Origin: Trypanosoma brucei
Taxonomy: Eukaryota
DNA length: 64,000 nt
Direction of reading: 5' to 3'
Assembly: GCA_000002445.1 (NCBI GenBank)
Contig: CP000068.1
Location: forward strand, 928,001-992,000
Under the pieces are notes generated by a model that was not told the DNA's origin, searched no databases, and saw nothing but the letters and a program-made list of their open reading frames with translations. Numbering within the stretch: position 1 is the first letter of the stretch; the number at the start of each line of letters is the position of its first letter. Below are positions 34,873 to 64,000 of this stretch, piece after piece. The translations under genes were made by a program, and so were the position numbers.

Positions 34873-35178
34873 ATGTCCTCCGGTTTCCATTTTCATGACG
34901 TGTCCAATGACGCCATCAAAGGAATGCCACCGAGCGAGGCTTTACATAAGCACCTGGAGAATGCGCAGCTCGCGCACCGCATTTGCCTTGCCAAGGCACT
35001 AAAGGCTGGTGAACCCCCTGTGGAAAAATGTGCACTCACGTGGGGTGAAGTGCTCATACGGTACCAGGCCTGGTCCGAGTATCGCCCACCCTTCCAGGAT
35101 AGTGTTGCACAGGCAAAATACAAGAAGTACTGGAGCAAAAAGCGACAGGAAGAGGACGACAAGAATCCATTCAAATAA
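34873..35178 (+). CDS. Small hypothetical protein (101 aa), the last gene of the plus-strand cluster
   Basis: ATG start. Small basic protein; its position is supported by spacing after the previous gene. Could also be spurious. Confidence 0.4.
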   Translation: MSSGFHFHDVSNDAIKGMPPSEALHKHLENAQLAHRICLAKALKAGEPPVEKCALTWGEVLIRYQAWSEYRPPFQDSVAQAKYKKYWSKKRQEEDDKNPFK

Positions 35179-44895: not shown

Positions 44896-44899
44896 CATA

Positions 44900-44940
<41 letters not shown>
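44896..44940. repeat. (TA)n microsatellite, imperfect, about 20 units
   Basis: catatatatgtgtat(at)16. Confidence 0.9.
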
Positions 44941-44943
<3 letters not shown>

Positions 44944-44986
44944 TTTTTTCTGCTTTCACTTCCATCAATGAACACGAAATGAGATA

Positions 44987-44989
<3 letters not shown>

Positions 44990-45051
<62 letters not shown>
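44990..45051. repeat. (AT)31 perfect dinucleotide microsatellite
   Basis: 62 nt of uninterrupted alternating AT. Confidence 0.95.
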
Positions 45052-45053
<2 letters not shown>

Positions 45054-47507: not shown

Positions 47508-48449
47508 CTCCTCCCTCGGGAAAGATTCTATATCACACCTCCGGTGATGTGTCCAGCAGCAAAACACTGAACTGTTTTCCAGAAGTTTTGGTTTTCAGCC
47601 CACGCCACCGCTTGTAATACAAGACCTCGGGTCTACTCAGAATAATTCTTTCGGCTTACCCCTGTTGCACGACTCACCTCCTCCTTGCCACAGTGGAGTT
47701 ACGCTTTAACCTCTTTCTTTTATTTTCCTTCTCTCGTGCTGTTGTTGCCTTTTTTTTTTTAGTGCACCGGCCAATGCGCATACACTTCTATATATTACGT
47801 ACAAATACCGTTTGCACTCAACAAAATGCCACAAAGCCCAACTCCTTTACTTTAACAGAAACCCCACTTCTTTTTTTCTTTTTAATGTATAAATAAAGTG
47901 GTCCAGGTATTCTGGCTATTATTACAACTTATTGTCCACCTTTATAATTTTATGTCTTCACCCTATGTACTTCACGCCCCCCTTTTTGTCTTTTTAGTTT
48001 TCTTAACTCCCGTTTCAGGTGACAAAAAGAGACGAAGCCAATCTCCCTTGGCGATATCTTCTCCACAAAGATATATTTCACTCCCTTTTGTTTCCTTCCC
48101 CACTCCCTTTGGAGCCACTCGGCGGATTTTAAAAGATCGCCCCTGCAGCTGTGGAGAGTCTAATAACAGTGGAGGTGATGCTGTAATCACAATGTAAAGG
48201 GTATCGTCCAGAAGAGGAGGGAGAAAAGAAATAAACAAATAAATAACGGAGCCGTTACGATTAGGAGGTTGAGAACAAGAGAGCAGTAAGTAACGTTATG
48301 AGTTGGGTCACAATGGCACAAGAGAGAAAAAAAGTTAACAACCGTTAGACTCCTACTGATGTGTATGTACGCGCGTGTTTGCGTACGCGTACGTGATGCA
48401 GTGACGCGTGGTAGATGCGGAAGCAAATAAAATGAATGACTGCAGTTCG

Positions 48450-49100
48450 TTACTCCTCTCCTGAAGGTGGGGGAGGCGGGCGCATGGCTTTGTCTTCCTC
48501 CCGTATTTCCACACGATACTCTGCTGAGCTGCGCTGCTGCTGCCAGTGATGGCGTCCACTAGTTGGTCCCAAACCACGTTGTTGGTGAAGGTACTCCCGT
48601 CCCGGTTGCACGTCCTGAAAATGTTGAAACTGCTGCCGACTTAACTCGGGGTCGTAAACTTCCTCCATATATGTTGCCACGTCTTGTCCGGTATCGCGTG
48701 GGATGCCCATGCTGTCGTACTCGTACGTGTGTGTCCGGGTAAAGTTATGGTGCTTCTCAAGCACATATATCGCACGCCGGGCCTCTTCAATACACTCGTC
48801 GATAAGTAACTTTTCCGTGGCGGTCGCTCGTCGGCGGAAAGCAAAGCGGCAGTAGGCGATGAGGCTGCGACGGCGAACACTTTTGAAGTCCATAAGCCCC
48901 TTAATAATGTTGCGGTAGAGAAGCAACACGAGACTTTTGTGCTCTGGTGTTGGTGTGAATTCCCAAACCTCCCTTCGCGCATGAGGACGCGGTTTCACTT
49001 CTTGTTCTTCCTCCGGAGAATGCAGTTTCTGAGTCGGAATGAACTTCTGCCTCAACAGCGGGGTGGAAAATAATACACCTCGCCGCGTTATGGGCAACAT
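48450..49100 (-). CDS. LYR-motif (complex 1 LYR family) protein, probably mitochondrial, with a long C-terminal extension
   Basis: LVLLLYRNIIKGLMDF...RRRSLIAYCRFAFRRR matches the L-Y-R ... F signature of LYRM proteins. Presequence-like MLPITRRGVLFS. ATG start confirmed. Confidence 0.65.
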   Translation of the reverse strand: MLPITRRGVLFSTPLLRQKFIPTQKLHSPEEEQEVKPRPHARREVWEFTPTPEHKSLVLLLYRNIIKGLMDFKSVRRRSLIAYCRFAFRRRATATEKLLIDECIEEARRAIYVLEKHHNFTRTHTYEYDSMGIPRDTGQDVATYMEEVYDPELSRQQFQHFQDVQPGREYLHQQRGLGPTSGRHHWQQQRSSAEYRVEIREEDKAMRPPPPPSGEE

Positions 49101-50472: not shown

Positions 50473-53400
50473 TTAAAGCTCCTGGACATTACTGAAGAAG
50501 GGGCTATTAGGGTTGAATTGAACATGCGTTGCCTCAAAGTTTTCACCCACAACCTCAAAACAATGCATTGCCATTTTTGCAGTTAGCCGCTTGTCGGGAT
50601 CGGTCACCAGTAGTGATAGAACGAAACTAGCAAATTCCAGCGAATAGTTTCGCGCCAGGATGTCGTTCATCACCATGGCAGCAAAACCCTCCCGTTCGGC
50701 CTCCTCGTACATCAGACGCACCGTCTGTACCGTTACACGGGCTGTTGCAAGAGCATACAGCACGCAACCGAGGCTCCACAAGTCGCTTGCTGTAGAGGTT
50801 TGACCAACCCAACACTCCGGTGCAATGTACGGTCGTGTGCCACCTCCTCGCCCCATCTTGCGGCGCCCCTCTAGCACAAAAGCAAGGCCAAAGTCCGTTA
50901 CAACAATAGGAATGATATCTGCTGTAATTCTCGTTGGGCAACCACCGCGACTGGTGGACCGCGGTGACTTTCCCCTTTCCTTCGGCGTTTCGTCAAACAC
51001 CTCAACTGCAACGGCAAGCGGAGAGGTAACGTCTTTCCCCTCCTTGCTTCCACCTTCCCTGTTGCAACCGTGATGAGATTTGCTGCCCCCATGCTCATGG
51101 CGCGAGCTCCCACTGCAGTCAAGGGGATTCCCACGAATAAGGATATTTTCGGGCTTAAGATCGCGGTGTACTATAGGCGGGCGCTGCGAGTGCAAGTGGT
51201 GAAGAACCGAAGAAAGTTGGTATGCAATTGAGAGTAGTTGCGGCTCCGTGAAGGGGTTTTCGCGCATCACAAACATGTCCTCCAGTTTCTTGTATATGTC
51301 ATTCATACCACTGCCACAGTTACTAGTGGAAGCCGCACCTACTCTACGGTCGGGTGCTGCGGCTCGCCCACATGGCGATGAACCGCAAGAGTCTTCTCCA
51401 CAAAACAACCTCGGCGCAGTGACTTCTGGAGGGAGAAGCGGGCTTTGACTGTTAGAGGAAATTAGACGCACCCCGTCCGAAGTATCCTCATCTCGTTTAT
51501 TAAGTTTTTCTTCATATGCACATGCTGCTTGCAGCTTTTCCCTCTCTAGTTGGGAGCGAACCTTGGGGTTATGGGTAGCGGAGTGTCGCATAGCGTAACC
51601 ACAGAGGTCACCAAGCGGATGATACTCCATGACAAGTCCTAGATAGCGGCTATGAGCTAGTCCTTGGTCCGGTGATGGCTGTGAAGAACGTTCCCTCACT
51701 TCAGCCACTGGTTTGAGTGGTGAGTGGCAGAGTGAAGCTGGAGGTACATTATCATTCGTTGGTAATATAACAACTCCATTTCCCATTGAGTATGGCTGTC
51801 TCCCCGGTGTTTGTGTGCCGTCCACCCTATGGTTGGTGTTAGTCACGGCACCAAGCGAGTGAGAACAAACATTGTTTCGGCCTCTTTCACTACGTTGAAC
51901 CTGCTGCCCCATCAGTGACGGTTGATATGTCGCCACTGTTTGCAAAGATGACACGCGACCCTCCCTTCCAATGTGGCCACCTAAAATACTAGAAGTGTCA
52001 ATTTCTGCAGTCAACACTTTAGTTGAGCTATTCCTCTGGAGGCGAGCTGCACGCACGGCGTCTGCGACCGACTTCGGTTTGGACATCGCCGGCACCGAAC
52101 AATGCGTAGGTGCGCAGGCGCATAAGTCCTCCGCCACAAAGTTGGTGTATTGCACACTTCCGGCGGCCGGTTGCACGTAATTGGGTAATGTGGGTGTTGG
52201 CGGTAATGCCGGTTGTGGACATCTGGCGACACCAGAAGCAGATATTGCGATATCGAAGTCCTTGTAGTGTATTCCACCCCGTGGAGCATAGCTTGTTCTC
52301 TTTGAAGTGGTAAGTGATTCGCCCTCCTGCTGTTGCTGCTCGCACTGGTCGTTGTTTTCGCCCTGTTGTTGTTGTTGAACTATAGGGGACGGCATTGGTT
52401 CCGTGGGTTGCGCAAAGTTGGGGTAGTGAACCACGATGGCTTGCTGTCGGGCTGGTGTAGTTAGCTGCGATGGTGTACCTACGGTCCTTACTGCTACAGT
52501 TGCCGAGTTCCCCTCTGCTCCAACAGCACTGGACGTGGTTAAACGGGTCGGTGCATTTGGCGGTGATGTTTCATGCACATCAGGAGGAGGCTGTGCGTGG
52601 TTTGAAGACCGTACACTTCCACAATGTGTTGACACCGAGGCAGCAGATGCTGATGGAGGAGGTGCAGTGGAGACCAGATTGTCCTCTTTACTCCGCTTGC
52701 CGATCGACGGTGGTGGCATATAAGACACTTCATCCGTACCTTTAGCCGTGTGTGATCTCGCAGGATCTGTGATATCGACCTTCTGAGGTTCAGCCAACGG
52801 TTTCTGACTTGCCGGCACTTCAGGTATATTACGTTTTTCTCCATGCGGTCCCGCAGGTGCACGCGGGATACCTGCATCCAACAGAGGTGCGTCGAGGCGC
52901 GAACAATTTATTTCCTTCGATGCAAACGCACAAGATCCTCGCTTCGGCTGAAAAACATATGGAGATGTCATCGCATGCGCCAAGAAGGCCTGTGGTGTTG
53001 AAGGAGATTCATTACCACCTGTAAACTCATAATTCATGAACATTTCCACAATTCGTATAATGTTTGGGTGGCCCTGCAGGGAGTTAATTGTTTCACACTC
53101 CCTTAGTGCGTCTAAGCGTTCTTTGTTATCTCTGCACACAAGGTATTTGAGAGCGAACTGCTGTTTGCTGCGTCTATGCTTGACCAAATATACAGACGAA
53201 AATGCACCTTCTCCAATACGTCGTACCACCTCGTAGCGCGAGTCCCGTGTAGTGTTCTTTACCACCATATCCATCTCTGTTCTGAAATTTGCACCATCCC
53301 CAGCAATTCTTAGATTCCGCGGAGTTGCAGCCGACCCACTTGCGGCTTCGGCAACTTTCCTCCTATGGCTTCTATCTGGTTCTGCCACGAACTGCCTTCT

Positions 53401-55401
53401 CCCGCCTGCCCTTTTGGGAGATATTCTGCTACCAATTGTCTTTCTCTCTTCCTTCGCAAGAAGATGTACAGTATAGTCCCCATCGGGTCCCCCAGCGGTT
53501 ACAGGACGAGAAATTACCGTTGTTGTCACCACCACCACGATAAGACCAGCGAGGCAAGTGGTAAAGACGCCAATAGTGTACAGAAGTTTGCGGTTTAGAC
53601 CTTCCTGGGGTTGCGGAGTCACCTCATGATGAATTCTGAACGGCGTGAAGGTGACCGGAGTATAGAGAAGAGACATTTCTACCGCTGCAGGGCAACCTCT
53701 GTCCACACAAGGGAGAGGTACAAAACCATTGGCAAAGCACACGAAAACACGCGTTGCCTCACCCATTGGGTAGAACACCGCCACCGTCGCTTCGTCCTCT
53801 TGCTGGAATACTTGTGCGTCCGTAGTCCCCGCCACGTTATCCGTACAGCGGACATTACTAGACAACCGCACAAATCCGCTGCGGGGTGGCCGCAAGGTGA
53901 GGTTAAGCGGGACACCAACGGGTATTACAGCACGCACCTCAGCTACGCTTGTGACCGCAACATCACTCGCACGGTAGAAGAGACGAGTGGAAGCCGTACC
54001 ATCAGCATCGAAACCACCAATATTAAAGAACACCATGGTTGCACCAAGAAGTCCAGTTGAGAGTGGGAAAGCAAAGGGTGTTGATATCTCAGTTGGAAGT
54101 GGGCTTCTACCGCCAATCAGCGGTTCCCACATATCTGGGCTGCTATCATTTCCGTTGTTGGGATTTGTGTGGTTGAAAAGTTTCTCAATGTCGAGGCAAT
54201 TGACGAAACTACTATTCATCATAACGCACAACCTACCGTTGAAGGCAAACATATGCCTTTTTTGAGGACTGGGAATGCTCAGTTCCATGTTACATGGCAC
54301 ACCAGGTATAAGAGACAAGGAAAGGGACGCACTAGTTTTGCTACTGTTGTCGTCATTTACAAGCGGATCACTTTCAACAAGCATAACAACCTGCACTGCG
54401 GGTGTAGGACACCACAAACCCACGGAAGATACTTCACCGGAATTGTCTGTCGCATTGACCCATTTGTGCCCCTCTGAGCACTCGCGAAACAGTTCCGATT
54501 CCCGCTGCTCAAGGGGCCCGTCATGATGCACCTCACCACCGACAACATACATAAGTGCGTTATCAAGTGTGACGAGCGGGTTTCGCACTGCCGTTGTGAG
54601 GTTGAAGATATCGGGATGGTACTGCCGTTTCTGTGTATCATACACATCCACAGTGCCAATAACTCCGCCCGTGTTCATATCAACTCCGCCCACGATGAAG
54701 AGTAAATGGCCATGTGAGGCACATGTAGCGTTGGCACGAAGTACTGTGCCCGCTGGTACACTGTCACCCACGCGCTCTTCCGCCTCTGCTCCCCTTGAGT
54801 CACTGACCCATGACTGTATGAGAAAGTGATCCACAACTTTGGTCATATCATTAGAGAGTGCCCATATGCTCGCGTACTGCTCCCTAACCAACGGGGACTG
54901 CGGAAACCCATCCCTCTCAGGGTAGTAATAACTGCAGGCACCAACAACATATACGCCCGAATTGTTTTGGTCATCAATATCATCTACCCGTACTGCACTC
55001 GTGGGGCCAGCCACCATAAGAGGTGTTGCATTCCCGTGTGCCCCACTACCAAGTCCTCGACCGCCCAGTTTGATGGGAAGTTCCATGTGCTGTGGCTCCG
55101 TTTGATCACTGGGGTCCACAATGTCAACGGCATTGACGCGCTGAGTACACGCAACATCTCTACAACCACCAATGATGACGAGGGAACCATTTAACCACAC
55201 AACGGCACTGTATGCTCGACCAATCGCCATTTCCGAGTCAAACGGTACCCATGAATCATCAGAATCCTTCAATGTACCATTGGTCGCGCGCCTAAGAGTT
55301 GAAGATTCTGCCTCACCCAACAGATAAACAACATTTGCGCCAAACAAAATTGTTACAAAAGCTACAAACACCAACATACAGAACAATGGCCGCACAACCA
55401 T
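50473..55401 (-). CDS. Receptor-type transmembrane Ser/Thr protein kinase A: signal peptide, kelch-like beta-propeller ectodomain, single TM helix, cytoplasmic kinase domain with very large low-complexity inserts
   Basis: The ORF-track start at 55611 is TTG and reads through a (TA)n repeat; the first ATG at 55401 begins MVVRPLFCMLVFVAFVTILFGANVVYLLG, a signal peptide or anchor. Ectodomain has repeated kelch-like motifs (VVWLNGSLVIIGG, YVVGACSYYYPERDG, LLFIVGGVDMNTGG, LMYVVGGEVHHDG). TM helix LLYTIGVFTTCLAGLIVVVVTTTVI. Kinase motifs: IGEGAFSSVYLV, FALKYL, HRDLKPENILI, VVTDFGLAF, YIAPECW, DLWSLGCVLY. Confidence 0.8.
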   Translation of the reverse strand: MVVRPLFCMLVFVAFVTILFGANVVYLLGEAESSTLRRATNGTLKDSDDSWVPFDSEMAIGRAYSAVVWLNGSLVIIGGCRDVACTQRVNAVDIVDPSDQTEPQHMELPIKLGGRGLGSGAHGNATPLMVAGPTSAVRVDDIDDQNNSGVYVVGACSYYYPERDGFPQSPLVREQYASIWALSNDMTKVVDHFLIQSWVSDSRGAEAEERVGDSVPAGTVLRANATCASHGHLLFIVGGVDMNTGGVIGTVDVYDTQKRQYHPDIFNLTTAVRNPLVTLDNALMYVVGGEVHHDGPLEQRESELFRECSEGHKWVNATDNSGEVSSVGLWCPTPAVQVVMLVESDPLVNDDNSSKTSASLSLSLIPGVPCNMELSIPSPQKRHMFAFNGRLCVMMNSSFVNCLDIEKLFNHTNPNNGNDSSPDMWEPLIGGRSPLPTEISTPFAFPLSTGLLGATMVFFNIGGFDADGTASTRLFYRASDVAVTSVAEVRAVIPVGVPLNLTLRPPRSGFVRLSSNVRCTDNVAGTTDAQVFQQEDEATVAVFYPMGEATRVFVCFANGFVPLPCVDRGCPAAVEMSLLYTPVTFTPFRIHHEVTPQPQEGLNRKLLYTIGVFTTCLAGLIVVVVTTTVISRPVTAGGPDGDYTVHLLAKEERKTIGSRISPKRAGGRRQFVAEPDRSHRRKVAEAASGSAATPRNLRIAGDGANFRTEMDMVVKNTTRDSRYEVVRRIGEGAFSSVYLVKHRRSKQQFALKYLVCRDNKERLDALRECETINSLQGHPNIIRIVEMFMNYEFTGGNESPSTPQAFLAHAMTSPYVFQPKRGSCAFASKEINCSRLDAPLLDAGIPRAPAGPHGEKRNIPEVPASQKPLAEPQKVDITDPARSHTAKGTDEVSYMPPPSIGKRSKEDNLVSTAPPPSASAASVSTHCGSVRSSNHAQPPPDVHETSPPNAPTRLTTSSAVGAEGNSATVAVRTVGTPSQLTTPARQQAIVVHYPNFAQPTEPMPSPIVQQQQQGENNDQCEQQQQEGESLTTSKRTSYAPRGGIHYKDFDIAISASGVARCPQPALPPTPTLPNYVQPAAGSVQYTNFVAEDLCACAPTHCSVPAMSKPKSVADAVRAARLQRNSSTKVLTAEIDTSSILGGHIGREGRVSSLQTVATYQPSLMGQQVQRSERGRNNVCSHSLGAVTNTNHRVDGTQTPGRQPYSMGNGVVILPTNDNVPPASLCHSPLKPVAEVRERSSQPSPDQGLAHSRYLGLVMEYHPLGDLCGYAMRHSATHNPKVRSQLEREKLQAACAYEEKLNKRDEDTSDGVRLISSNSQSPLLPPEVTAPRLFCGEDSCGSSPCGRAAAPDRRVGAASTSNCGSGMNDIYKKLEDMFVMRENPFTEPQLLSIAYQLSSVLHHLHSQRPPIVHRDLKPENILIRGNPLDCSGSSRHEHGGSKSHHGCNREGGSKEGKDVTSPLAVAVEVFDETPKERGKSPRSTSRGGCPTRITADIIPIVVTDFGLAFVLEGRRKMGRGGGTRPYIAPECWVGQTSTASDLWSLGCVLYALATARVTVQTVRLMYEEAEREGFAAMVMNDILARNYSLEFASFVLSLLVTDPDKRLTAKMAMHCFEVVGENFEATHVQFNPNSPFFSNVQEL

Positions 55402-56181
55402 TGTATATATATATATATATTTTTTTTTTATAACTTCTTTTATCCAAGTGTTTTTATGACTGTCTGTATGAAAGTTCGGATACAATTCGCCAGAAATCCG
55501 GGGACTAGCGGGTAGCAAATGTGGCAGTGACGCCAGAGCACCACGAACTGCTCTTCCCCCTCCTCCACTGCTACCAATAATGTAGTTGTACTGTAAACAA
55601 TCACAACACAAATAAATAAGTAAATAAAGGGAAAGTTTGCACCATTAATGACAGGAAAAGTCAAGGAAGATATCAAGAAGGGAGTACGAGTAGTATGGGC
55701 GTTGCAAGTGATGGCAACAAAAAAATCAGAGGGAACAGAATGATTTCGTTCGCCACTTCCCTTTTCTACAACTGTGACCGTGCATATTAGTGGAAGGTAC
55801 ATCAGGGAGGGGGAAAGGATTGACTGATATTACTGAAGAATAAAAAGTTATATATATTTACGGAGAGGGGGGGGAGAGAACAGGAAAAACAATTAGCGGA
55901 TGGAAAAAGTGGGCTTACTGTACTCATATATCCGTTCTCCACTTTTTTTCATTTTTTAAAAAAATCAAAGCACCAAATCGGAAAACTCGGACGGACACTG
56001 CTATATACCGCAGTAAGGAACTAAAACAAAATGCGTACAGAAACAATAAATTATATATACGTCCGTAAGATAGTTTGAATCTACTTTGAAACTCTTGTTA
56101 CACAACTTTCTCCTTGTACGCTAACATCAACTGAGACACACCTATATCCACACACATACACACGCACAAGCAAGCAAACGA

Positions 56182-56212
<31 letters not shown>

Positions 56213-56769
56213 ATAGTGGTGGTAATGAACAAAATAGAGTCCAACAGCTGAAGACACGGAATAGTTCAATAACGTAATAAAAAAAGAAGCAAGCAAATAG
56301 AAAAAAAGTTGAAAGGGCGCTAACCGCAACGACCGCAAGGATGGGGTAGTTCCCCGTTTACAGGTTTAGAGGACCGGCAGTAGAAACGCAACCCCTAATG
56401 AATAAAATATGTCCCGCCAACAAACCGTTGCACGACAAAGATTAACCGAAGTAAACACCATACTACTTTTCATTCCCGCGAGTCTTGCATCATACCATTC
56501 GCCAGTATAGTCGTGATGCTTACGGAACGGCTGCAGCAGCGCCATGCAGGTGGTACATCACTGCTAACGATCCAACCCTTCACCAGTTGTCACCTTTCCC
56601 CCTTTCCCCAATTTCGTCCTCGTACCTTCCTTACCAACTACTTCCAGCTGATCAATTATCAGACTCTCATTTCTTCCTCTTTCTGCTTTCTTTACAATCC
56701 TCACTGTCCTCTCCTCACCTGCTAGCTAATAAAGAATAAATACCATCTTTATTTCGACACCAGTGACCC

Positions 56770-59700
56770 TCAAACGTTTTTGGAAACTGTCAGTGGCACC
56801 GGAGATTCCCTTTTCGATGAATTAAGAGAAGTTGCAACAAGTGAAGGAGACTCTCGTGCAATAAAAAATTCGCACTGCTCACCCTCCTCTGCGACAGTTT
56901 CGAAATACTGTTGGAGCACCTGCAATCGGCGACTCCTTCTACCATTTGGGGAGCCTAGTTTGTGTGCCCGAGCAACCGGAGGAACGTCCATCGTATTATG
57001 GTGTTCCTGTCGCATGCCCTGGCTTGAATCAGCGTGTGATCCATGGGAGAAACTAGTAATGGGAGGCATATTTTGTGACTCTACCGCTTTTGGTGGGGGA
57101 CTATTTAGTCCGAATCCTTCACCGGCCCCTCCAGACGGTGTAACAACTTCAACTGTGGCCCCACTGCGGTGCGTAGAGAAACTTGTAGATTTCAGCGTCC
57201 CGCAGACTACATCAGATCCTTGACCACTTACCGGTGCCCTCGATTCACCTCCGTATCCACTGACTTCCTCAGACGTCGCAGCCACCAACTGTTTATAGGA
57301 ATCGTCATGCATTATTCCACCTTCTGCTCCATTTCCTTCCTCATCACTGCATCCACTCGCAACATCATCGTCCCCCTTATACACCGTAACCATCGCAGCC
57401 TCTTCCGTCAGGCCATCCGTACCCTTACGACGCCTGCGAATAAATCTCAGGGCTTCCTCAGCACTTGGCCGGCGAGCTGGATCTGGCTCCAAAAGATAAA
57501 CAATGAAGGCCGCAAGTGCCATACTATACCCGTATACCTGTGTTAATTCTTCCAGCAACTTCTTTTTGAAGTCTGGTTTGTTGGACTCGCTAAACATAAC
57601 TTTTACATTGTCACTTTCTACGCGCTTTGCGCATACGGCGTAAAGAATGCACCCGGTGGCCCAAATATCCACCTTTGTGGAGTAGTGTCGCTGCCAACAC
57701 TCCGGTGCCACATACGGCAGCGAACCGACGCCCGTTTCGCAGAAGGTCTTGTCCATCACACGCGAAAGTCCAAAGTCTGTCACAACAATGCGCAGCGTCT
57801 CCTCTGAGGCGCCGGTGCCGATTCTTCCGCTGCTGTTCTTCGAACTCCAATCTACCCTGTCATATCTATCCCGGTTCCTCCCCCTTTTCACAGCAGGCGA
57901 CGAATCGAGAAGAATGTTTTCTGGCTTTAAGTCACGGTGAATGATTGGCGGTTTTTGTTGGTGCATGAACTGCAGAACCGTTAGTATCTGAAATGCAATG
58001 CTCACCACTGTCTTTTCAGGAATCTTTGGTTCTGACTTTTGTTGCCGCACCCACATACCCAAGTCCCCCCTCTCATGATAAGCCATTACAAGTGATAAGT
58101 ACCGCTCCCCCGCCTGGGGGCGGTGTGATGGTACGTGGGATTCTGATTCATCACCGCTGCCTACACGGTGAATGCGAGTGGGATCGTGTAGCAGCAGCTC
58201 ACCGCGACACTGACGTCGATACGCGCCTTTCCTCCCATCAACGCCGTCGGAGGTCGGTAGATGGGTATCAAACCGATAGGACATGAACATGTCAACGAGG
58301 CATATCACATTTGGGTGCCCTTGAAGGGTGTAAGCGACCTCACACTCTCGCATGGCCTCGTGACGATCCATGTCATCGGCACATTGAACGTACTTCAATG
58401 CGAATCGTTCTCCATCCATCACTCGTTCCACAAGGTACACTACGGAGAATCCACCCCTACCGAGGCGGCGCAGTACCCGGTATTTTCCATCCAGCAAACT
58501 TTGTTTCTGGTGCACCGGAAGAGCAGCACCTGGACCGAAACCTCGGCGATGTCTGCTCTTATCATCATTTTCGTCATCGTAGTCACCAGATTCGTCCTCC
58601 GAGAAACATCCTTCGACTACAGTCACATCAACTTCCTTACCATGTTTGTGCCTTATAGCATAACTTATCATGCTAGCACTCCACAGCACTAAACTCACAC
58701 CACATCCTACTGCCACACCAACAAGGTAAAGTGGTTCAACAGCTGGTGGCGGCACCGGCTGAGGACCTGGTGGATCCGGTACCCAATGAGTTACAGGGGA
58801 AAGAACAAATGGGTCGTTTGCATTTAGTGGTCGGTAGAAACCAGTAGTACACGGTCCTTGATGCGCATCCATCGCGCCCAGCGGTACGTGTGGCGCCCTT
58901 AACATTGATGAGGATGATTCATGCACCGCCCTCTCGTTACACCGCTGGACGGTGGCCGCTCCAGTGGAGAAGCAGACATAAACAAACAACTGCTCGTAAA
59001 ACACATTATCTGTATCATTACCGAAACTTCTTTGCGTTGGTCGGGGATGAAACACAAATTCATCTCGATGTGTGGTGCTGGTGTTTATGTAAGGAGTGGT
59101 GATATTATGTATACCGTTTATGAGGGAGCCAGTGAGAGTGATCGGACCCACGGCAACGGTGTTCACGACCGCGGAGACGTTCTTGCCCGGGTCAGTCATA
59201 TTTACTACGTAGGGCCAAGTATTGGCGAATGACAAATTCCCCAAGTTTAACAATACAGAGTTGCACGCAGGCGAATCGGAAAGCCGCAACAAACATGTTG
59301 ATGATGTTAGATTGCCGCTCACTTCCCCTGTAGCATTGATGCCCTGACAGGCAGTTGAAATCTGTTCCGACAAAAGGATTGCAAACGTGAAATTATACCA
59401 CAGTGGCTTATACCCGTTTACGTGCACTGTCCAGTTTCCGTCTTTATTTGGCAAGTCCGCCGGAGGGGGCGTTGGTTGATCGTGCATTGTTGCATTAGCT
59501 GTTGGTTGCTCCTCGTCATGAAATGGGTCGTCGAGAACACTCTGCCCCGTATGTGATATACTGTCCACCTCTGTCGTATCTCCTTTCGAAAATTTGGCCT
59601 CTACTATTTGGCCTCCTTCCCCACTGCGCGCTATTCCTAACATTTGCCGGTGTGTCGCGTCATCTGCCACTGAAATGTAGTTAAATCCCTGCACCGTCAC

Positions 59701-61044
59701 ATCAGCATGACCGTCTGCAACATGCACGTTACCGGTGAAGAGATCGCGTGAAATACCCGTCCCATCCGGTGGGGGTATTTGCCCGCCTATGAGATAGAGT
59801 GACATGCCGTCGGCATTTGGTACGGAAGCAATAACGGCGTTGGTACGCAGCGGTGCAAAACCAATCATCACATCTGTCGCGTCACTACCCGGCCCTGAGA
59901 GGTCCACCCATGACTCCAGTCGATCGAAAGAACGTCGATATGTTGCCGCAATCATTGCCAACGTTCGATTGTATATCATGAGCTGCGGCGACAACCAGTC
60001 TAACAACTCAGAGTCGAACTGACCAACATCTGCCGTGAAGTATGTGGGGTCCACAACATACACGTTGTCGTTGTATTCTGGCCAGCCTCTGTAGTCACGG
60101 CAGCCCCCTCCAATAAACACAAGCTCACTGTTGTCTACCACGCCCGGTGTAATAAGTGAGGTGCCCAACCCCCAACCAGCGTCGACAAATTGTCCAGTAA
60201 CTGTGTTGAACTGTGAAACGGACGTCATGGGGTTACCATCTATTAACGATACACCACCTACGATATAAATTGTACCATTGCCATTCCCCACACAACTAGC
60301 GTTGAAGCGAAGTGTTGCGGTGTCGGGAATCGAAATGTGTTGTATATCCATTGAGAGATCATCCACTGGAGGGAACTGCTGTTGGTACAACCTAATTACT
60401 TGGACAGATCGAAGAGTTGCATTGATTGTTTGCCCGCGACCAGGACGAACACCATAGGGAAGCATTGTACAGAAGCCAATAACGTACACTGTCGATCCCA
60501 GCCGAACTGCGTTTGATGTTCCGACAGCCGGAAAGTGCAACTTCGCCGGCACGCGCACGTCCCCTTTGGTTCTCCCGTGAAAAGTTTCACTACCACTACC
60601 GTCGTGTGCAAATGTTGCATTATCTTGAAACATCATGGGTGTCACAAATGTCTCGGTAGTTATATCCAAAGCACTGATCGTGGTAAGTGCGTAATACCGG
60701 ACGAAGTTCTCTGCCGATGTGAAGGGCCGAACGAGCCGGGTACCTCCAACGATAAGAACATAACGACCCATCGATACCGCTGACGGCAAAATACCCGTTA
60801 CGTTGAGGCTGGCTTTGCTTGGACTCCATCCCGTAAAGGTAACAGTTGTTTGGTCGGTGTCATCGTCAAGGAGAGATGATACCGCTTGAACGGCATTAGC
60901 AGATTCGTGACGCCGCGCAGGCGTGGCCCTCAGTGGCGCTGCTAAGGAATAACGGGATGTGAGGGAGAGGAGCAGCAGAGCCCATATCCTAAGAAAAAGG
61001 CAATATCTAACCAACACCATGCGTCCTCCTGGCGTTGTGGTCAT
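56770..61044 (-). CDS. Receptor-type transmembrane Ser/Thr protein kinase B, a paralog of kinase A: signal peptide, kelch-like ectodomain, TM helix, kinase domain
   Basis: The ORF-track start at 61089 is TTG; in-frame ATGs lie at 61044 and 61020 (MVLVRYCLFLRIWALLLLSLTSRYSLAAP signal peptide). Kelch-like motifs (GRYVLIVGGTRL, STVYVIGFC, GTIYIVGGVSLIDG, SELVFIGGGC, MSLYLIGGQIP). TM helix LYLVGVAVGCGVSLVLWSASMISYAI. Kinase motifs: LGRGGFSVVYLV, FALKYV, HRDLKPENILL, VVTDFGLSRV, YVAPECW. Shares the FALKY, GHPN(I/V)I, MFM(N/S)Y, LVM(E/A)YH and PPI(V/I)HRDLKPENIL blocks with kinase A. Confidence 0.8.
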   Translation of the reverse strand: MTTTPGGRMVLVRYCLFLRIWALLLLSLTSRYSLAAPLRATPARRHESANAVQAVSSLLDDDTDQTTVTFTGWSPSKASLNVTGILPSAVSMGRYVLIVGGTRLVRPFTSAENFVRYYALTTISALDITTETFVTPMMFQDNATFAHDGSGSETFHGRTKGDVRVPAKLHFPAVGTSNAVRLGSTVYVIGFCTMLPYGVRPGRGQTINATLRSVQVIRLYQQQFPPVDDLSMDIQHISIPDTATLRFNASCVGNGNGTIYIVGGVSLIDGNPMTSVSQFNTVTGQFVDAGWGLGTSLITPGVVDNSELVFIGGGCRDYRGWPEYNDNVYVVDPTYFTADVGQFDSELLDWLSPQLMIYNRTLAMIAATYRRSFDRLESWVDLSGPGSDATDVMIGFAPLRTNAVIASVPNADGMSLYLIGGQIPPPDGTGISRDLFTGNVHVADGHADVTVQGFNYISVADDATHRQMLGIARSGEGGQIVEAKFSKGDTTEVDSISHTGQSVLDDPFHDEEQPTANATMHDQPTPPPADLPNKDGNWTVHVNGYKPLWYNFTFAILLSEQISTACQGINATGEVSGNLTSSTCLLRLSDSPACNSVLLNLGNLSFANTWPYVVNMTDPGKNVSAVVNTVAVGPITLTGSLINGIHNITTPYINTSTTHRDEFVFHPRPTQRSFGNDTDNVFYEQLFVYVCFSTGAATVQRCNERAVHESSSSMLRAPHVPLGAMDAHQGPCTTGFYRPLNANDPFVLSPVTHWVPDPPGPQPVPPPAVEPLYLVGVAVGCGVSLVLWSASMISYAIRHKHGKEVDVTVVEGCFSEDESGDYDDENDDKSRHRRGFGPGAALPVHQKQSLLDGKYRVLRRLGRGGFSVVYLVERVMDGERFALKYVQCADDMDRHEAMRECEVAYTLQGHPNVICLVDMFMSYRFDTHLPTSDGVDGRKGAYRRQCRGELLLHDPTRIHRVGSGDESESHVPSHRPQAGERYLSLVMAYHERGDLGMWVRQQKSEPKIPEKTVVSIAFQILTVLQFMHQQKPPIIHRDLKPENILLDSSPAVKRGRNRDRYDRVDWSSKNSSGRIGTGASEETLRIVVTDFGLSRVMDKTFCETGVGSLPYVAPECWQRHYSTKVDIWATGCILYAVCAKRVESDNVKVMFSESNKPDFKKKLLEELTQVYGYSMALAAFIVYLLEPDPARRPSAEEALRFIRRRRKGTDGLTEEAAMVTVYKGDDDVASGCSDEEGNGAEGGIMHDDSYKQLVAATSEEVSGYGGESRAPVSGQGSDVVCGTLKSTSFSTHRSGATVEVVTPSGGAGEGFGLNSPPPKAVESQNMPPITSFSHGSHADSSQGMRQEHHNTMDVPPVARAHKLGSPNGRRSRRLQVLQQYFETVAEEGEQCEFFIARESPSLVATSLNSSKRESPVPLTVSKNV

Positions 61045-62948: not shown

Positions 62949-64000
62949 TTACTTTTCAAAGAGCGTGGTGAGAGAATTTTCTGTATGAAGTTTCTCAATG
63001 GCACGTGCAAGCAACGGAGCAATAGGCAACACGCGCAGCCTCCTGGCGATGTGAGGATTTTTAAAGACCTCGTCGTGCTCTACGCTATCCGTAACCACAA
63101 TAAGATCGATAGGACTTTCTATGAGCCGCTCAACCGCGCGACCTGATATGATGAAGTGCGTTGCGATAAGTATGATACGACTGGCACCTTCCTCCCGCAA
63201 CTTGCAGGCAGTTTGACATATTTCAGTAGCTTCGTCAACAGAGGTATCTACAACAATGCACAGTTTCCCTTGTACATCTCCAACAAGGTCAATGCCTTCA
63301 GAGGTGATCGTGGTATCGCCATCATCTTGGATGGCGCAAATTCCCTGCTCCTGCTGCAGTAGCGCCTGCTCGAAGGCGCGTGTGCTCCCTACATTCGCAC
63401 CGCAATGGTTTATGTTGAGCACAGTATCCTGCAGCCCCCGATAAACCTGGCGCCTTACCGCTGTGCACAGTGGAACGAACTGCTCATCGGGGGAGAGTTT
63501 TTTGTACTGCATTAGCGCGTCTGCGAAATTCTTTGCACGATGAACACCGGCTCCATTGGGTGCCACGACGGTAATATTCCTGAAGTCGTGCCCTTCAGCG
63601 GTCAGCTGGTTCGCAATGTACTGAACGAACTCATACCGCGCTGATATCAGCTCAAGTGGAACGGAAAACATTCCTTCTACCTGATCGATGGGCATGTCAA
63701 CAGTTATTACGTGTTGGCAGCCCATACTCTCCAATATCTCCGCCACTGCAGCCATGGAAGAAACACTTTCAGTAAAGGAAATATAGGGAATAACAGCCGT
63801 AATACGCGCCGCAGAACTTGCTCTTGCCGCATGTATCATGAGAGCAAGTTCCATTAAAGTACCGGAGTGGGACAGACCCACACGATCGCACCTCACCAGT
63901 GACTGAAGCACAAACAAATCGTCGCCGCGAACGGAACGTGGGAGCACCACGTTCACTTCTCCATTTGGATATTGACCGCAACACGGTGGGTAACGGTTGC
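62949..64000 (-). CDS. Second ribose-phosphate pyrophosphokinase (PRPP synthetase)-like protein; its 5' end extends beyond the window
   Basis: RITAVIPYISFTES (compare RVTAVIPCFPYARQD), a VDMP..QVEGMF block at the alignment position of the PP-loop DLHASQIQGFF (that consensus is not conserved here; M replaces H), and GKLCIVVDTSVDEATEICQTACKLREEGASRIILIATHFIISGRAVERL. The frame stays open upstream of the GTG at 63956 to the window edge (..NRYPPCCGQYPNGEV-NVVLPRSVRGDDLFVLQS aligns to human ..[20 protein letters not shown]). Confidence 0.8.
   Translation of the reverse strand, partial: NRYPPCCGQYPNGEVNVVLPRSVRGDDLFVLQSLVRCDRVGLSHSGTLMELALMIHAARASSAARITAVIPYISFTESVSSMAAVAEILESMGCQHVITVDMPIDQVEGMFSVPLELISARYEFVQYIANQLTAEGHDFRNITVVAPNGAGVHRAKNFADALMQYKKLSPDEQFVPLCTAVRRQVYRGLQDTVLNINHCGANVGSTRAFEQALLQQEQGICAIQDDGDTTITSEGIDLVGDVQGKLCIVVDTSVDEATEICQTACKLREEGASRIILIATHFIISGRAVERLIESPIDLIVVTDSVEHDEVFKNPHIARRLRVLPIAPLLARAIEKLHTENSLTTLFEK

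What the first reader, a model, noticed from the sequence alone, without database searches (positions are those of the whole stretch)
50473..61044. Tandem pair of paralogous receptor-type Ser/Thr kinases with kelch-like extracellular beta-propellers
Two adjacent minus-strand genes of about 1642 and 1424 aa have the same architecture: N-terminal signal peptide, a roughly 600-aa ectodomain with recurring hydrophobic-GG kelch-like blades, one TM helix, and a cytoplasmic kinase domain that keeps every catalytic residue (VAIK-type Lys, HRDLKPEN, DFG, APE). They share diagnostic sequence blocks, so they probably arose by tandem duplication, but their ectodomains have diverged. Kinetoplastids lack canonical receptor tyrosine kinases, and to my knowledge their few transmembrane kinases are largely uncharacterised. 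A duplicated propeller ectodomain fused to an active kinase is therefore a strong candidate for a surface or flagellar-pocket sensing module. The system is Ser/Thr-kinase based but receptor-like in topology, which is unusual.
Basis: partly seen in the sequence, partly recalled or inferred. Interest (0 to 1): 0.7.

Follow-up and report, generated by a model that had tools for sequence, protein, structure and literature searches.

The report
Paired Kelch-propeller membrane kinases of trypanosomes
Two neighbouring Trypanosoma brucei genes (Tb927.5.3150 and Tb927.5.3160) encode ancient sister membrane kinases with a six-bladed Kelch propeller on the non-cytosolic side; one is already published as an ER-located Kelch kinase, while the other, and the conserved gene array they belong to, had not been described that way.

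Summary

- Tb927.5.3150 is already published as a signal-peptide, Kelch and transmembrane kinase. Tagged protein sits in the ER plus posterior puncta, not on the surface.
- Both genes gave no fitness loss on RNAi in bloodstream forms.
- The duplication is ancient, not recent.

New here:
- 3160 is a probable eleventh transmembrane kinase, absent from the published lists.
- The pair is the remnant of a three-gene array, C then B then A, also present in a metagenomic kinetoplastid-like contig and in Leptomonas.
- Domain loss is complementary. Trypanosoma lost C at this locus. In L. major, B is absent from the locus, A (essential in L. mexicana) has no propeller, and C keeps the propeller but is a predicted pseudokinase.

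This suggests, but does not show, that the paralogues work as hetero-oligomeric luminal sensors. The ligand and substrates are unknown.

The parts
50473..55401 (-). Gene A = Tb927.5.3150, 1642 aa plus stop: Kelch-ectodomain transmembrane Ser/Thr kinase
   Evidence: ORF. The cloning primer of Jensen et al. 2021 (ATGGTTGTGCGGCCATTGTTCTG) matches 55379-55401 exactly. 99% identical to the T. b. gambiense protein.
55336..55401 (-). A: signal peptide (aa 1-22; hydrophobic core FCMLVFVAFVTILFG)
   Evidence: KD peak 2.51 at aa 7-25. Signal sequence 1-22 is listed in S2 Table of PMC8519429.
53962..55269 (-). A: Kelch beta-propeller region (aa ~45-480). Blade motifs LVIIGGC, VYVVGAC, LFIVGGV, LMYVVGG. 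Invariant R222-x-N224-A-T-C227 sequon.
53590..53961 (-). A: membrane-proximal beta-rich domain (aa ~481-604) with conserved Cys (RLS..C, VCF)
   Evidence: The only part of the A model with pLDDT 70-86. Conserved columns. No Pfam family at E<=10.
53494..53589 (-). A: transmembrane helix (aa 605-636, core VFTTCLAGLIVVVVTTTVI)
   Evidence: KD 2.37. TMHMM 607-629 in PMC8519429 S2 Table.
50557..53244 (-). A: split protein kinase domain (aa 720-1615). Motifs: GEGAFS 730, FALKY 749, RECE 767, HRDLKPEN 1412, TDFGL 1502, APE 1527. Inserts at aa 794-1251, ~1272-1385 and ~1424-1496.
   Evidence: Pfam Pkinase 5.7e-40 in 3 stretches. Motif coordinates. Alignment.
50476..50556 (-). A: C-terminal tail ending NPNSPFFSNVQEL, conserved in A-type proteins from Trypanosoma to Leishmania
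   Evidence: FFSNVLDL, FFSNVRDL, FFTNVREL at the C-termini of orthologues.
55402..56769 (-). Intergenic spacer (1368 bp) between B and A, same strand, with pyrimidine-rich tracts
   Evidence: Sequence read. No ORF of 150 aa or more.
56770..61044 (-). Gene B = Tb927.5.3160, 1424 aa plus stop: paralogous Kelch-ectodomain transmembrane Ser/Thr kinase
   Evidence: ORF. 100% identical to the T. b. brucei TREU927 'protein kinase, putative'. RNAi primers TLO51 and TLO52 for Tb927.5.3160 (Jones et al. 2014) match 60598-60617 and 60077-60096.
60937..61044 (-). B: signal peptide region (aa 1-36; h-region LFLRIWALLLLSL, SLA|AP)
   Evidence: KD peak 2.02 at aa 10-28. N-terminal hydrophobic segments are also seen in orthologues. 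No predictor was run.
59665..60849 (-). B: six-bladed Kelch beta-propeller (aa ~66-460). Blade motifs at aa 96, 186, 259, 308, 362 and 416.
59431..59664 (-). B: low-complexity linker (aa ~461-538), absent from A
   Evidence: pLDDT below 50 for model residues 413-458. Variable in length among orthologues.
58744..59430 (-). B: membrane-proximal beta-rich domain (aa ~539-767) with family-wide conserved RLS587-589, C594 and C691
   Evidence: Model strands 486-690, mostly pLDDT 84-94. Conserved columns. No Pfam family. Fold not identified.
58654..58743 (-). B: predicted transmembrane helix (aa 768-797, LYLVGVAVGCGVSLVLWSASMISYAI) followed by RHKHGK
   Evidence: KD 1.96. A hydrophobic segment sits at the aligned position in all orthologues. 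Not listed among the TMHMM-based transmembrane kinases of PMC8519429.
57445..58497 (-). B: protein kinase domain (aa 850-1200). Motifs: GRGGFS 862, FALKY 881, RECE 899, HRDLKPEN 1036, TDFGL 1089, APE 1113. Inserts at aa 926-983 and 1048-1084, the same positions as two of the three A inserts.
   Evidence: Pfam Pkinase 7.1e-42. Best solved relatives are NEK7 2.4e-21, GAK, CaMK1, Snf1 and AAK1. Coordinates.
56773..57444 (-). B: cytosolic C-terminal tail (aa 1201-1424) with conserved YFE..(A/S)EE.E.CEFF(I/V)A motif near the end
   Evidence: Alignment. A similar QCEF(F/Y) occurs in P0012, P0020 and P0022.
62949..63956 (-). Upstream neighbour: PRPP-synthetase-like gene (C-terminal part of the ORF as listed), a synteny anchor
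   Evidence: Pfam Pribosyl_synth 5.1e-22 and Pribosyltran_N. The same neighbour stands upstream of the array in T. grayi, T. cruzi, L. seymouri and L. major.

Best explanation
Tb927.5.3160 (B) and Tb927.5.3150 (A) are two members of an old kinetoplastid family of type I membrane Ser/Thr kinases.

SHOWN or strongly supported:
- Each protein has a cleavable signal-like N-terminus.
- It is followed by a six-bladed Kelch beta-propeller and a Cys-containing beta-rich stalk domain. The invariant N-x-S/T sequon, the sequon enrichment and the conserved cysteines point to exposure in the ER lumen or outside the cell.
- Then come one membrane span and a catalytically competent 'orphan' kinase domain carrying lineage-specific inserts.
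- The ancestral locus held three such genes in the order C, B, A.

FROM THE LITERATURE:
- A resides mainly in the ER and endomembranes.
- Neither gene is needed for growth of cultured bloodstream forms when knocked down singly.
- The propeller-less A orthologue is essential in Leishmania promastigotes.

INFERRED mechanism:
- The propeller binds a luminal or extracellular ligand, a glycan, peptide or protein.
- Occupancy changes the oligomeric state, probably within hetero-oligomers of the paralogues.
- The cytosolic kinase domains then trans-phosphorylate their activation segments (GGGT-RPY in A, GVGS-LPY in B) and phosphorylate cytosolic targets.
- In topology and location this resembles PERK and IRE1 more than a plasma-membrane receptor.

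The hetero-oligomer idea rests on complementary domain loss. At the L. major locus the only propeller sits on a predicted pseudokinase (C), and the only active kinase (A) has no propeller.
For: Architecture:
- ORFs, Pfam and catalytic motifs.
- Hydropathy and sequon bias.
- Family-wide invariant R-x-N-A-S/T-C and conserved Cys.

Fold:
- B ectodomain model with pLDDT 81.5 and pTM 0.85.
- The ectodomain profile hits KLHL2 Kelch at 1.5e-13.

Family:
- An ectodomain profile search of 1.84 billion proteins gives 21 hits below 1e-30.
- Every full-length hit that was inspected carries a TM segment plus a kinase domain.

Array and age:
- PRPPs then B then A in T. grayi and T. cruzi.
- PRPPs then C then B then A in L. 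seymouri.
- C then B then A in metagenome contig L003, with different flanking genes.
- PRPPs then C then A in L. major.
- The B clade (91% bootstrap) and the A clade (50%) each contain Trypanosoma and Leishmaniinae.
- Diagnostic activation-segment signatures separate the three types.

Domain loss:
- Leishmaniinae A has a short N-terminal stub followed directly by the TM segment.
- L. major C has HGN in place of HRD and DGG in place of DFG.

Literature:
- ER plus posterior puncta, signal peptide, Kelch (PMC8519429).
- 'No LOF' for both genes (PMC3894213 supplement).
- LmxM.08.0530 'required, endomembrane' (PMC7902614), confirmed as essential (PMC11684651).
Against: - No ligand, substrate, phosphorylation or interaction data exist. 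Hetero-oligomerisation is inferred only from gene order and domain loss, and kinetoplastid polycistrons preserve gene order anyway.
- Both T. brucei genes are dispensable singly in culture, so any sensing role is conditional or redundant.
- ER localisation comes from ectopic or terminally tagged proteins. The conserved C-terminus of A (PFFSNVxEL) was masked by the tags, and the Leishmania tag was N-terminal.
- The A propeller is supported only by homology, by one or two canonical Kelch repeats, and by a low-confidence model (pLDDT 48).
- The TM segment of B is only moderately hydrophobic and was not called in the TMHMM-based published lists.
- L. seymouri C keeps the catalytic Asp (QGDLK), so 'pseudokinase' is secure only for L. 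major and P0036.
- The A clade has weak bootstrap support (50%).
Confidence: 0.5

Rival explanations
1. Plasma-membrane or flagellar-pocket receptors. The propellers face the outside. They sense host or vector cues and signal through the cytosolic kinase. The ER signal seen with tagged proteins is then a biosynthetic pool or a tagging and over-expression artefact.
For: - The type I topology and the glycosylation sequons fit the cell surface as well as the lumen.
- Tb927.5.3150-V5 also gave posterior, non-BiP puncta in the Golgi and endosome region, and the authors could not exclude that some protein reaches the plasma membrane (PMC8519429).
- The extreme C-terminus of A is strongly conserved and carries an FF motif that C-terminal tags would mask.
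- A 2026 preprint makes the same caveat for N-terminal tags on other Leishmania transmembrane kinases.
Against: - Three independent tagging experiments gave ER, reticulated or endomembrane patterns and no flagellar or pocket signal. They were V5 in bloodstream forms, mNeonGreen in procyclic forms and mNeonGreen in L. mexicana.
- In the same study MEKK1 and FHK did reach the flagellum or the pocket (PMC8519429).
- The Leishmania A orthologue is essential in axenic promastigote culture, where no host ligand is present (PMC7902614, PMC11684651).
Confidence: 0.22
2. Membrane-anchored kinases without ligand-gated signalling. The propeller and stalk act as a luminal anchoring or assembly module, for example binding a resident glycoprotein or the folding machinery. 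They place a constitutively active kinase on the ER or endomembrane surface. A and B are then simply redundant paralogues that do not pair.
For: - Leishmaniinae A works without any propeller and is still essential, so the kinase needs no ectodomain of its own (PMC7902614).
- Kelch propellers are generic protein-interaction platforms, as the top structural hits show.
- Single knockdowns have no fitness cost, which fits redundancy.
Against: - The propeller and stalk are conserved over the whole family. This includes an invariant sequon, conserved Cys and six blades, and extends to the otherwise degenerating C paralogue. That argues for a selected luminal function coupled to the cytosolic part.
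- In each lineage whose locus was read, at least one propeller and one active kinase are retained there.
Confidence: 0.2
3. Divergent members of the eIF2-alpha kinase (PERK-like) family. In this reading the large insert between beta4 and beta5 and the ER location mean they are extra PERK paralogues that control translation.
For: - The kinase insert sits at the position typical of eIF2-alpha kinases.
- ER-type topology.
- T. brucei eIF2K2 is also a signal-peptide plus transmembrane kinase (PMC8519429).
Against: - The best solved relatives are NEK7, GAK, CaMK1, Snf1 and AAK1. No PERK, GCN2 or HRI chain appears among the 60 matches listed, and PKR appears only as part of a PKR-NEK7 fusion construct.
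- The published kinomes class both genes as 'unique' or 'orphan', and the three PEK kinases are other genes (PMC1266030, PMC3894213, PMC7902614).
- The insert is absent or short in other family members, namely P0014, P0027 and P0032.
Confidence: 0.03

Closest known systems
Tb927.5.3150 as described in Jensen, Vaney, Flaspohler, Coppens & Parsons 2021 (PLoS One 16:e0258814), 'membrane kinome of T. brucei'
   Same: It is the same gene as ORF A. The paper already reports the signal peptide, TMHMM segments (7-29, 442-464, 607-629), two Kelch or Kelch-like domains, a C-terminal kinase, ER plus posterior puncta localisation, and the observation that the L. major orthologue LmjF.08.0530 lacks the Kelch region.
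   Different: - The paper does not mention the adjacent paralogue Tb927.5.3160. No occurrence of that ID, of 'paralog' or of 'tandem' was found.
- It does not mention the full six-blade propeller plus stalk, the three-gene array, or the pseudokinase paralogue.
- The TMHMM segment 442-464 falls within the stretch aligned here to the propeller region, so it is probably not a membrane span.
PERK and IRE1, and trypanosomatid eIF2K2
   Same: Type I membrane proteins of the ER or endomembranes. A luminal sensor domain, one span and a cytosolic Ser/Thr kinase activated by oligomerisation and trans-autophosphorylation (established knowledge). eIF2K2 also has a signal peptide plus TM segment in T. brucei (PMC8519429).
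   Different: - The luminal domain here is a Kelch propeller plus beta stalk, not the IRE1/PERK luminal fold.
- The kinase is not of the PEK or IRE type.
- There is no RNase domain.
- No link to ER stress has been tested.
Mycobacterium tuberculosis PknD, and bacterial kinase-Kelch fusions such as P0013
   Same: Transmembrane Hanks-type Ser/Thr kinases whose extracytoplasmic sensor is a six-bladed beta-propeller (own knowledge for PknD). P0013 is named 'serine/threonine protein kinase/N-acetylneuraminic acid mutarotase' and carries Kelch plus kinase Pfam domains.
   Different: - Opposite polarity: the kinase is N-terminal and the propeller C-terminal.
- The PknD propeller is of the NHL type.
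- Sequence relationship is confined to the generic kinase and Kelch signals. P0013 scores E 1.7e-4 over 4% of the query.
Hetero-oligomeric Ser/Thr receptor kinases: TGF-beta type I/II receptors, plant receptor and co-receptor pairs, pseudokinase co-receptors such as ErbB3
   Same: Single-pass receptor kinases in which ligand binding and catalysis are divided between paralogous chains. This is the same logic as L. major C (propeller plus dead kinase) with A (active kinase, no ectodomain).
   Different: The resemblance is an analogy drawn from gene content only. No interaction data exist, the ectodomain folds are unrelated, and the location is probably intracellular.
Kelch-repeat propellers: KEAP1, KLHL2/3/12, LZTR1, KLHDC3, Muskelin, NanM (YjhT), plant specifier proteins
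   Different: - Most of those proteins are cytosolic adaptors or enzymes.
- Here the propeller is in the secretory pathway, glycosylation-competent, followed by a stalk domain and fused to a kinase through a membrane span.
- Only 9-19% sequence identity.
- Blades 2, 5 and 6 are recognisable only within the family.

Membership tests
Eukaryotic protein kinase superfamily (catalytically competent ePK) | Gly-rich loop, beta3 Lys, alphaC Glu, HRD catalytic loop with Asn, DFG, APE, alphaF Asp and subdomain XI Arg | tested here: met
   Both proteins carry GxGxFS, FALKY, RECE, HRDLKPEN, TDFGL, APE, (S/V)D(L/I)W and DPxxR. Pfam Pkinase E 5.7e-40 and 7.1e-42. Kinase activity itself was not assayed.
Ser/Thr-specific rather than Tyr kinases | Catalytic loop HRDLKxxN (Ser/Thr) rather than HRDLAARN or HRDLRAAN (Tyr) | tested here: met
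   HRDLKPEN in both. Classed with the Ser/Thr kinases in PMC1266030 and PMC8519429.
Kelch-repeat beta-propeller | Sequence match to Kelch repeat models | tested here: met
   A: Kelch_1 40 bits against a cut-off of 20.1. B: Kelch_4 17.5 against 21.6, which is sub-threshold. Family profile against PDB: KLHL2 1.5e-13, covering only profile positions 175-275.
Kelch-repeat beta-propeller | Closed six-bladed propeller of four-stranded sheets | tested here: met
Type I single-pass receptor-like kinase | Cleavable signal peptide, one TM helix, ectodomain outside the cytosol, kinase in the cytosol | tested here: inconclusive
   Hydropathy gives one N-terminal and one internal segment each. Sequon enrichment in the ectodomain. 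Conserved Cys. Basic residues follow the TM segment of B. SignalP and TMHMM predictions for A are published. No predictor or experiment was available here, and the TM segment of B is absent from the TMHMM-based lists.
Cell-surface or flagellar-pocket receptor | Residence in the plasma or flagellar-pocket membrane with the ectodomain exposed | not testable with these tools
   Published tagging places A in the ER with posterior puncta and places the Leishmania orthologue in endomembranes. B has no localisation data in the papers searched.
eIF2-alpha kinase (PEK) family | Kinase domain closest to PERK, GCN2, PKR or HRI, with an insert between beta4 and beta5 | tested here: not met
   The insert is present, but the best solved relatives are NEK7, GAK, CaMK1, Snf1 and AAK1. 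The genes are classed as orphan or unique in the kinome papers.
Kinetoplastid Kelch-ectodomain kinase family (types A, B, C, defined here) | Collinear ectodomain (W, GG, C, RxNA(S/T)C, IVGG, RLS, C, VCF), then TM, then a kinase with FALKY...RECE...LQGHPN and a type-specific activation segment | tested here: met
   Profile search: both window proteins score E<1e-169 over the whole profile. Signatures: A has GGGTRPYIAPECW and B has ETGVGSLPYVAPECWQR. Clades.

The most novel reading that the evidence does not exclude
The A, B and C paralogues are subunits of one hetero-oligomeric luminal (or surface) receptor-kinase complex. It would be a kinetoplastid-specific counterpart of type I/II Ser/Thr receptor systems, or of IRE1/PERK-type ER sensors, in which ligand binding by Kelch propellers and catalysis can be split between chains. 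Leishmania would show the extreme case: the propeller only on pseudokinase C, and the essential active kinase A without an ectodomain. In organisms that lack IRE1, ATF6 and receptor tyrosine kinases, this complex would be a main route for carrying information from the secretory lumen or the environment to the cytosol.
Probability: 0.2. Interest if true: 0.75.

Novelty: new member of a known kind. Interest (0 to 1): 0.42.

Why it matters
Trypanosomatids have no receptor tyrosine kinases, no heterotrimeric G-protein receptors and no canonical IRE1/ATF6 unfolded-protein response. How they pass signals across membranes is a long-standing gap.

- One protein of this pair is already on the short published list of ten transmembrane kinases.
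- Recognising its neighbour as an eleventh changes the experiments worth doing.
- So does recognising both as survivors of a conserved three-gene array with complementary loss of propeller and catalytic function.
- Single knockdowns, which have been negative, are probably uninformative. Double A+B mutants in T. brucei and C-A interaction tests in Leishmania are the relevant experiments.
- The A orthologue is essential in Leishmania and belongs to a parasite-specific orphan kinase class, so its regulation has drug-target interest.

If the paralogues turn out not to interact, the finding is an ordinary addition to a known small family.

Tried and rejected
1. The word-indexed homologue searches returned only 8, 5 and 2 hits, and no Leishmaniinae. 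The exhaustive profile search was needed.
It was rebuilt as A3.
3. The first AF2 run, on the A ectodomain with an 11-sequence alignment, gave pLDDT 48 and is used only as weak support. The second run, on B with 34 sequences, succeeded.
4. The afdb50 fold library was not available. I therefore could not look for further T. brucei proteins with the same ectodomain, or for a match to the stalk domain.
5. The membrane-proximal domain has no Pfam hit even at E<=10. Whole-model fold searches are dominated by the propeller, so its fold is unidentified.
6. NCBIfam gives only generic bacterial kinase models far below their cut-offs.
7. The eIF2-alpha kinase idea, prompted by the beta4-beta5 insert, was rejected.
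8. I first thought P0026 (L. pyrrhocoris, lacking the N-terminal half) was the propeller-less A type. Its activation segment shows it is a truncated B-type gene model.
9. In the NJ tree P0034 sits on a long isolated branch, probably because of how I trimmed it. Its B-type assignment rests on the activation-segment motif.
10. Literature searches found nothing in main texts for Tb927.5.3160, LmjF.08.0540 or the T. cruzi neighbour IDs, and did not turn up the T. brucei surface-proteome papers.
11. No tRNA genes occur in the window.

Full report
**1. What is at the coordinates**

The region holds two long minus-strand ORFs.

The window is Trypanosoma brucei brucei TREU927 DNA. B is 100% identical to a TREU927 'protein kinase, putative' on a 1,608,198-bp record. 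A is 99% identical to the T. b. gambiense protein.

Gene identities were fixed with published primers:
- The cloning primer for Tb927.5.3150 from Jensen et al. 2021 matches 55379-55401.
- The RNAi primers for Tb927.5.3160 from Jones et al. 2014 match 60598-60617 and 60077-60096.

So A is Tb927.5.3150 and B is Tb927.5.3160. They lie in one transcription direction, separated by a 1368-bp spacer. A PRPP-synthetase-like gene lies upstream of B.

**2. Check of the observation**

*Kinase.* Pfam finds a protein kinase domain in both (E 5.7e-40 and 7.1e-42). All catalytic signatures are present in both:
- the Gly-rich loop
- FALKY
- RECE
- HRDLKPEN
- TDFGL
- APE
- the alphaF Asp and the subdomain XI Arg

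The catalytic loop is of the Ser/Thr type. The domains are split by inserts at the same two positions in both proteins, after beta4 (MFMxYxF) and between the catalytic loop and DFG. The first insert is about 460 aa in A and about 58 aa in B. A has a third insert after alphaD.

*Membrane topology.* Hydropathy gives one N-terminal and one internal hydrophobic segment per protein: A 1-31 and 605-636, B 8-29 and 768-797. NxS/T sequons are concentrated N-terminal to the internal segment, 12 of 17 in A and 17 of 19 in B (Fisher p 0.005 and 0.002). Several cysteines are conserved across the family there.

*Paralogy.* The two proteins are clearly paralogous:
- 51% identity in the kinase N-lobe
- 32% in the C-lobe
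- a weak but significant ectodomain match (25% over 171 aa, E 3e-7)

In a multiple alignment with orthologues of both, that ectodomain match becomes a collinear set of invariant columns: W, GG, C, RxNA(S/T)C, IVGG, GG and VCF.

The corrections are that the B ectodomain is about 730 aa, and that signal peptide and TM rest on hydropathy and conservation, because no dedicated predictor was available.

**3. The ectodomain fold**

By sequence, only part of the ectodomain looks like canonical Kelch:
- Kelch_1 is above threshold in A at aa 222-262 and sub-threshold in B.
- A family profile hits the KLHL2 Kelch domain at 1.5e-13, but only over profile positions 175-275.

An AlphaFold model of the A ectodomain from an 11-sequence alignment was poor, with mean pLDDT 48. 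After collecting more relatives, I modelled the B ectodomain (aa 60-771) with a 34-sequence alignment. That model reached mean pLDDT 81.5 and pTM 0.85.

- Foldseek against the PDB returns only Kelch domains at the top: NS1-BP E 1.4e-12 with TM(target) 0.70-0.78, then KLHDC3, plant specifier proteins, KEAP1 and LZTR1.
- Six hydrophobic-GG blade motifs lie at B aa 96, 186, 259, 308, 362 and 416.

B therefore has a six-bladed Kelch propeller (aa ~66-460). It is followed by a disordered linker and a confidently modelled beta-rich membrane-proximal domain (aa ~539-767) with conserved RLS, C594 and C691. That domain has no Pfam match, and I could not assign its fold.

**4. What is already known**

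*Parsons et al. 2005.* They listed one T. brucei 'unique' kinase with a Kelch domain, and ten kinases with predicted TM domains.

*Jensen et al. 2021 (PMC8519429).* They treat Tb927.5.3150 explicitly:
- a signal peptide
- TMHMM segments
- two Kelch or Kelch-like domains
- colocalisation of the C-terminally V5-tagged protein with BiP in the ER, with extra posterior puncta
- a reticulated TrypTag signal
- an L. major orthologue, LmjF.08.0530, that lacks the Kelch region

Tb927.5.3160 is not among their ten, and the text holds no mention of that ID, of 'paralog' or of 'tandem'.

*Jones et al. 2014.* They class both genes as 'Orphan', with no loss of fitness on RNAi in bloodstream forms.

*Leishmania mexicana.* LmxM.08.0530 is 'Other/unique', endomembrane, and could not be deleted (Baker et al. 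2021). A second CRISPR method confirmed that it is essential (PMC11684651).

The architecture is thus already in the literature for one of the two genes, and the published location is intracellular.

**5. The family and its gene array**

A profile of the ectodomain was searched against 1.84 billion representative proteins. It gave 863 hits at E<=1e-3 and 21 below 1e-30. Beyond the top group, hits are generic Kelch proteins that match only the canonical blades. Every full-length match that I inspected is a signal-ectodomain-TM-kinase protein. Named sources include T. vivax, T. conorhini, Leptomonas, Novymonas and L. major, alongside unnamed metagenome and Logan assemblies.

Activation-segment signatures separate three types:

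| Type | Signature |
|---|---|
| A | DFGLAF..E..R..GGGT(R/Q)PYI(A/S)PE(C/S)W |
| B | DFGLSR(V/I)MDK(T/A)FCETGVGSLPYVAPECWQR |
| C | DFGLAR.QE..C.SGAGT(L/V)PYVAPE(C/A)F |

An NJ tree of the kinase core supports the B clade (91% bootstrap). It supports the A clade more weakly (50%). Each clade contains both Trypanosoma and Leishmaniinae.

Gene order at the locus:

| Organism or contig | Order |
|---|---|
| T. grayi, T. cruzi | PRPPs, B, A |
| Leptomonas seymouri | PRPPs, C, B, A |
| Metagenome contig L003 (gene-dense, one strand, different flanking genes) | C (3' end), B, A |
| L. major | PRPPs, C, A, 352-aa gene, eIF5/eIF2B-domain gene |

In L. major B is absent from the locus. The last L. major gene matches the eIF5/eIF2B-domain ORF at window 42338-43279.

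The duplication that produced A and B is therefore ancient, and the ancestral state was a C-B-A array.

Domain loss is complementary:
- Trypanosoma lacks C at this locus.
- Leishmaniinae A has only a short N-terminal stub before its TM segment and no propeller.
- Leishmaniinae C keeps the propeller-like ectodomain and the TM segment, but its kinase is degenerate. L. major has HGNIK in place of HRDLK and DGG in place of DFG. L. seymouri retains QGDLK.

**6. How it most likely works**

*Shown.* The architecture, the fold, the family, the array and the catalytic competence at sequence level.

*From the literature.* ER or endomembrane residence of A, dispensability of each gene singly in bloodstream-form culture, and essentiality of propeller-less A in Leishmania promastigotes.

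*Inferred.*
- The propeller and stalk face the ER lumen or the exterior and bind a ligand.
- Binding alters oligomerisation.
- The cytosolic kinases then trans-phosphorylate and signal.

Two points suggest that the paralogues act together, with ligand binding and catalysis divisible between chains. Each lineage whose locus was read keeps at least one propeller and one active kinase there. At the L. major locus these sit on different polypeptides. This resembles type I/II receptor kinases, or a pseudokinase co-receptor. In location and topology it resembles PERK and IRE1, which matters because trypanosomatids lack a canonical IRE1/ATF6 response (own knowledge).

I put about 0.5 on this overall reading: high for the anatomy, about 0.2 for the hetero-oligomer. 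Conserved adjacency is weak evidence, because kinetoplastid polycistrons keep gene order for other reasons.

**7. Rivals**

1. *Surface or flagellar-pocket receptor (0.22).* Every tag used so far is on a terminus, and the extreme C-terminus of A (NPNxPFFSNVx(E/D)L) is conserved from Trypanosoma to Leishmania. Masking it could trap the protein in the ER. Against this, three independent tagging experiments agree, and other kinases in the same study did reach the pocket or the flagellum.
2. *Anchoring module without ligand gating, with A and B simply redundant (0.2).*
3. *Divergent eIF2-alpha kinases (0.03).* Rejected because the nearest solved kinases are NEK7, GAK, CaMK1, Snf1 and AAK1 and the kinome papers class the genes as orphans.

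**8. Comparison and novelty**

The closest known thing is the gene itself as described in 2021. Functional analogues are:
- PERK, IRE1 and eIF2K2, for topology and compartment
- M. tuberculosis PknD and bacterial kinase-Kelch fusions, for a propeller sensor on a Ser/Thr kinase, with opposite polarity
- hetero-oligomeric Ser/Thr receptor kinases, for division of labour

To my knowledge, and within the library searched, the following are new:
- recognition of Tb927.5.3160 as a Kelch-propeller transmembrane kinase and paralogue of 3150
- the full six-blade plus stalk ectodomain
- the A/B/C family with its conserved array
- the complementary losses

I rate it a new member of a known kind, of moderate interest (0.42). 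The most novel reading not excluded is a kinetoplastid-specific hetero-oligomeric luminal receptor-kinase system (probability about 0.2, interest 0.75 if true).

**9. Limits**

- No signal-peptide or TM predictor, no AFDB search and no access to TriTrypDB or TrypTag.
- The organisms behind the metagenome and Logan contigs are unknown.
- The stalk-domain fold is unassigned.
- The A propeller is not independently modelled with confidence.
- Whether T. brucei has a C-type gene elsewhere was not tested.

Noticed in passing
window 34400-39300: All ORFs of 250 aa or more are on the + strand up to 34.4 kb and on the - strand from 39.3 kb. GC skew changes sign at about 38 kb. This looks like a convergent strand-switch region between two polycistronic units. 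No tRNA genes were found there.
   Followed up: partly
window 44000-46000: An AT-rich island (GC 0.317, against about 0.47 around it) with (AT)22 and (AT)31 microsatellites at 44897-44940 and 44990-45051, lying in a gap of about 3 kb between the ORFs at 42338-43279 and 46407-47567.
   Followed up: no
window 52117-52434 (A aa ~990-1095): Inside the poorly conserved 460-aa kinase insert of A there are three short motifs of the form (H/Q)Y-x-(N/D)-F: VHYPNF, IHYKDF and VQYTNF. Nearby are KRTSYAPRGG and KPKSVADAVRAAR. They are conserved in T. grayi, T. rangeli, T. cruzi, T. vivax and T. conorhini, with similar (R)Y-x-N motifs in Leishmaniinae. They may be docking or sorting motifs of the YxxPhi type.
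   Followed up: partly
window 50476-50520 (A C-terminus): The last residues of A (NPNSPFFSNVQEL) are nearly invariant in A-type proteins of Trypanosoma, Leptomonas and Leishmania. C-terminal epitope tags, as used for the published localisation, would mask this motif.
   Followed up: partly
L003:799-6967: In the metagenomic contig, the B-like and A-like gene calls overlap by 20 bp (B ends at 4068, A starts at 4049). All called genes are on one strand with very short spacers. The proteins are compact (1089 and 972 aa) because the kinase inserts are short.
   Followed up: partly
L006:1200-8828: A Logan assembly (SRR29272288) has a 734-aa PRPP-synthetase-like gene followed by a C-type pseudokinase-like gene (P0036, with HGNLH in place of HRDLK) and then a fatty-acid desaturase. 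No B or A gene lies next to it. The organism is unknown, so this does not settle whether any Trypanosoma keeps a C-type gene.
   Followed up: partly
P0014 (Logan, 1117 aa): An A-type protein with a full ectodomain but without the large beta4-beta5 insert (IIRFVDGPIKNDFCCGLVVEYHPQGDL), and with HRDLKPQN and ADFGLA. The big insert is therefore not essential to the family.
   Followed up: no
window 42338-43279 and 48450-49100: Downstream of A lie a 216-aa ORF with no Pfam family and, further on, an eIF5/eIF2B-domain ORF. L. major shows the same order, namely A, a 352-aa gene, then an eIF5/eIF2B-domain gene, so synteny extends beyond the kinase array.
   Followed up: partly
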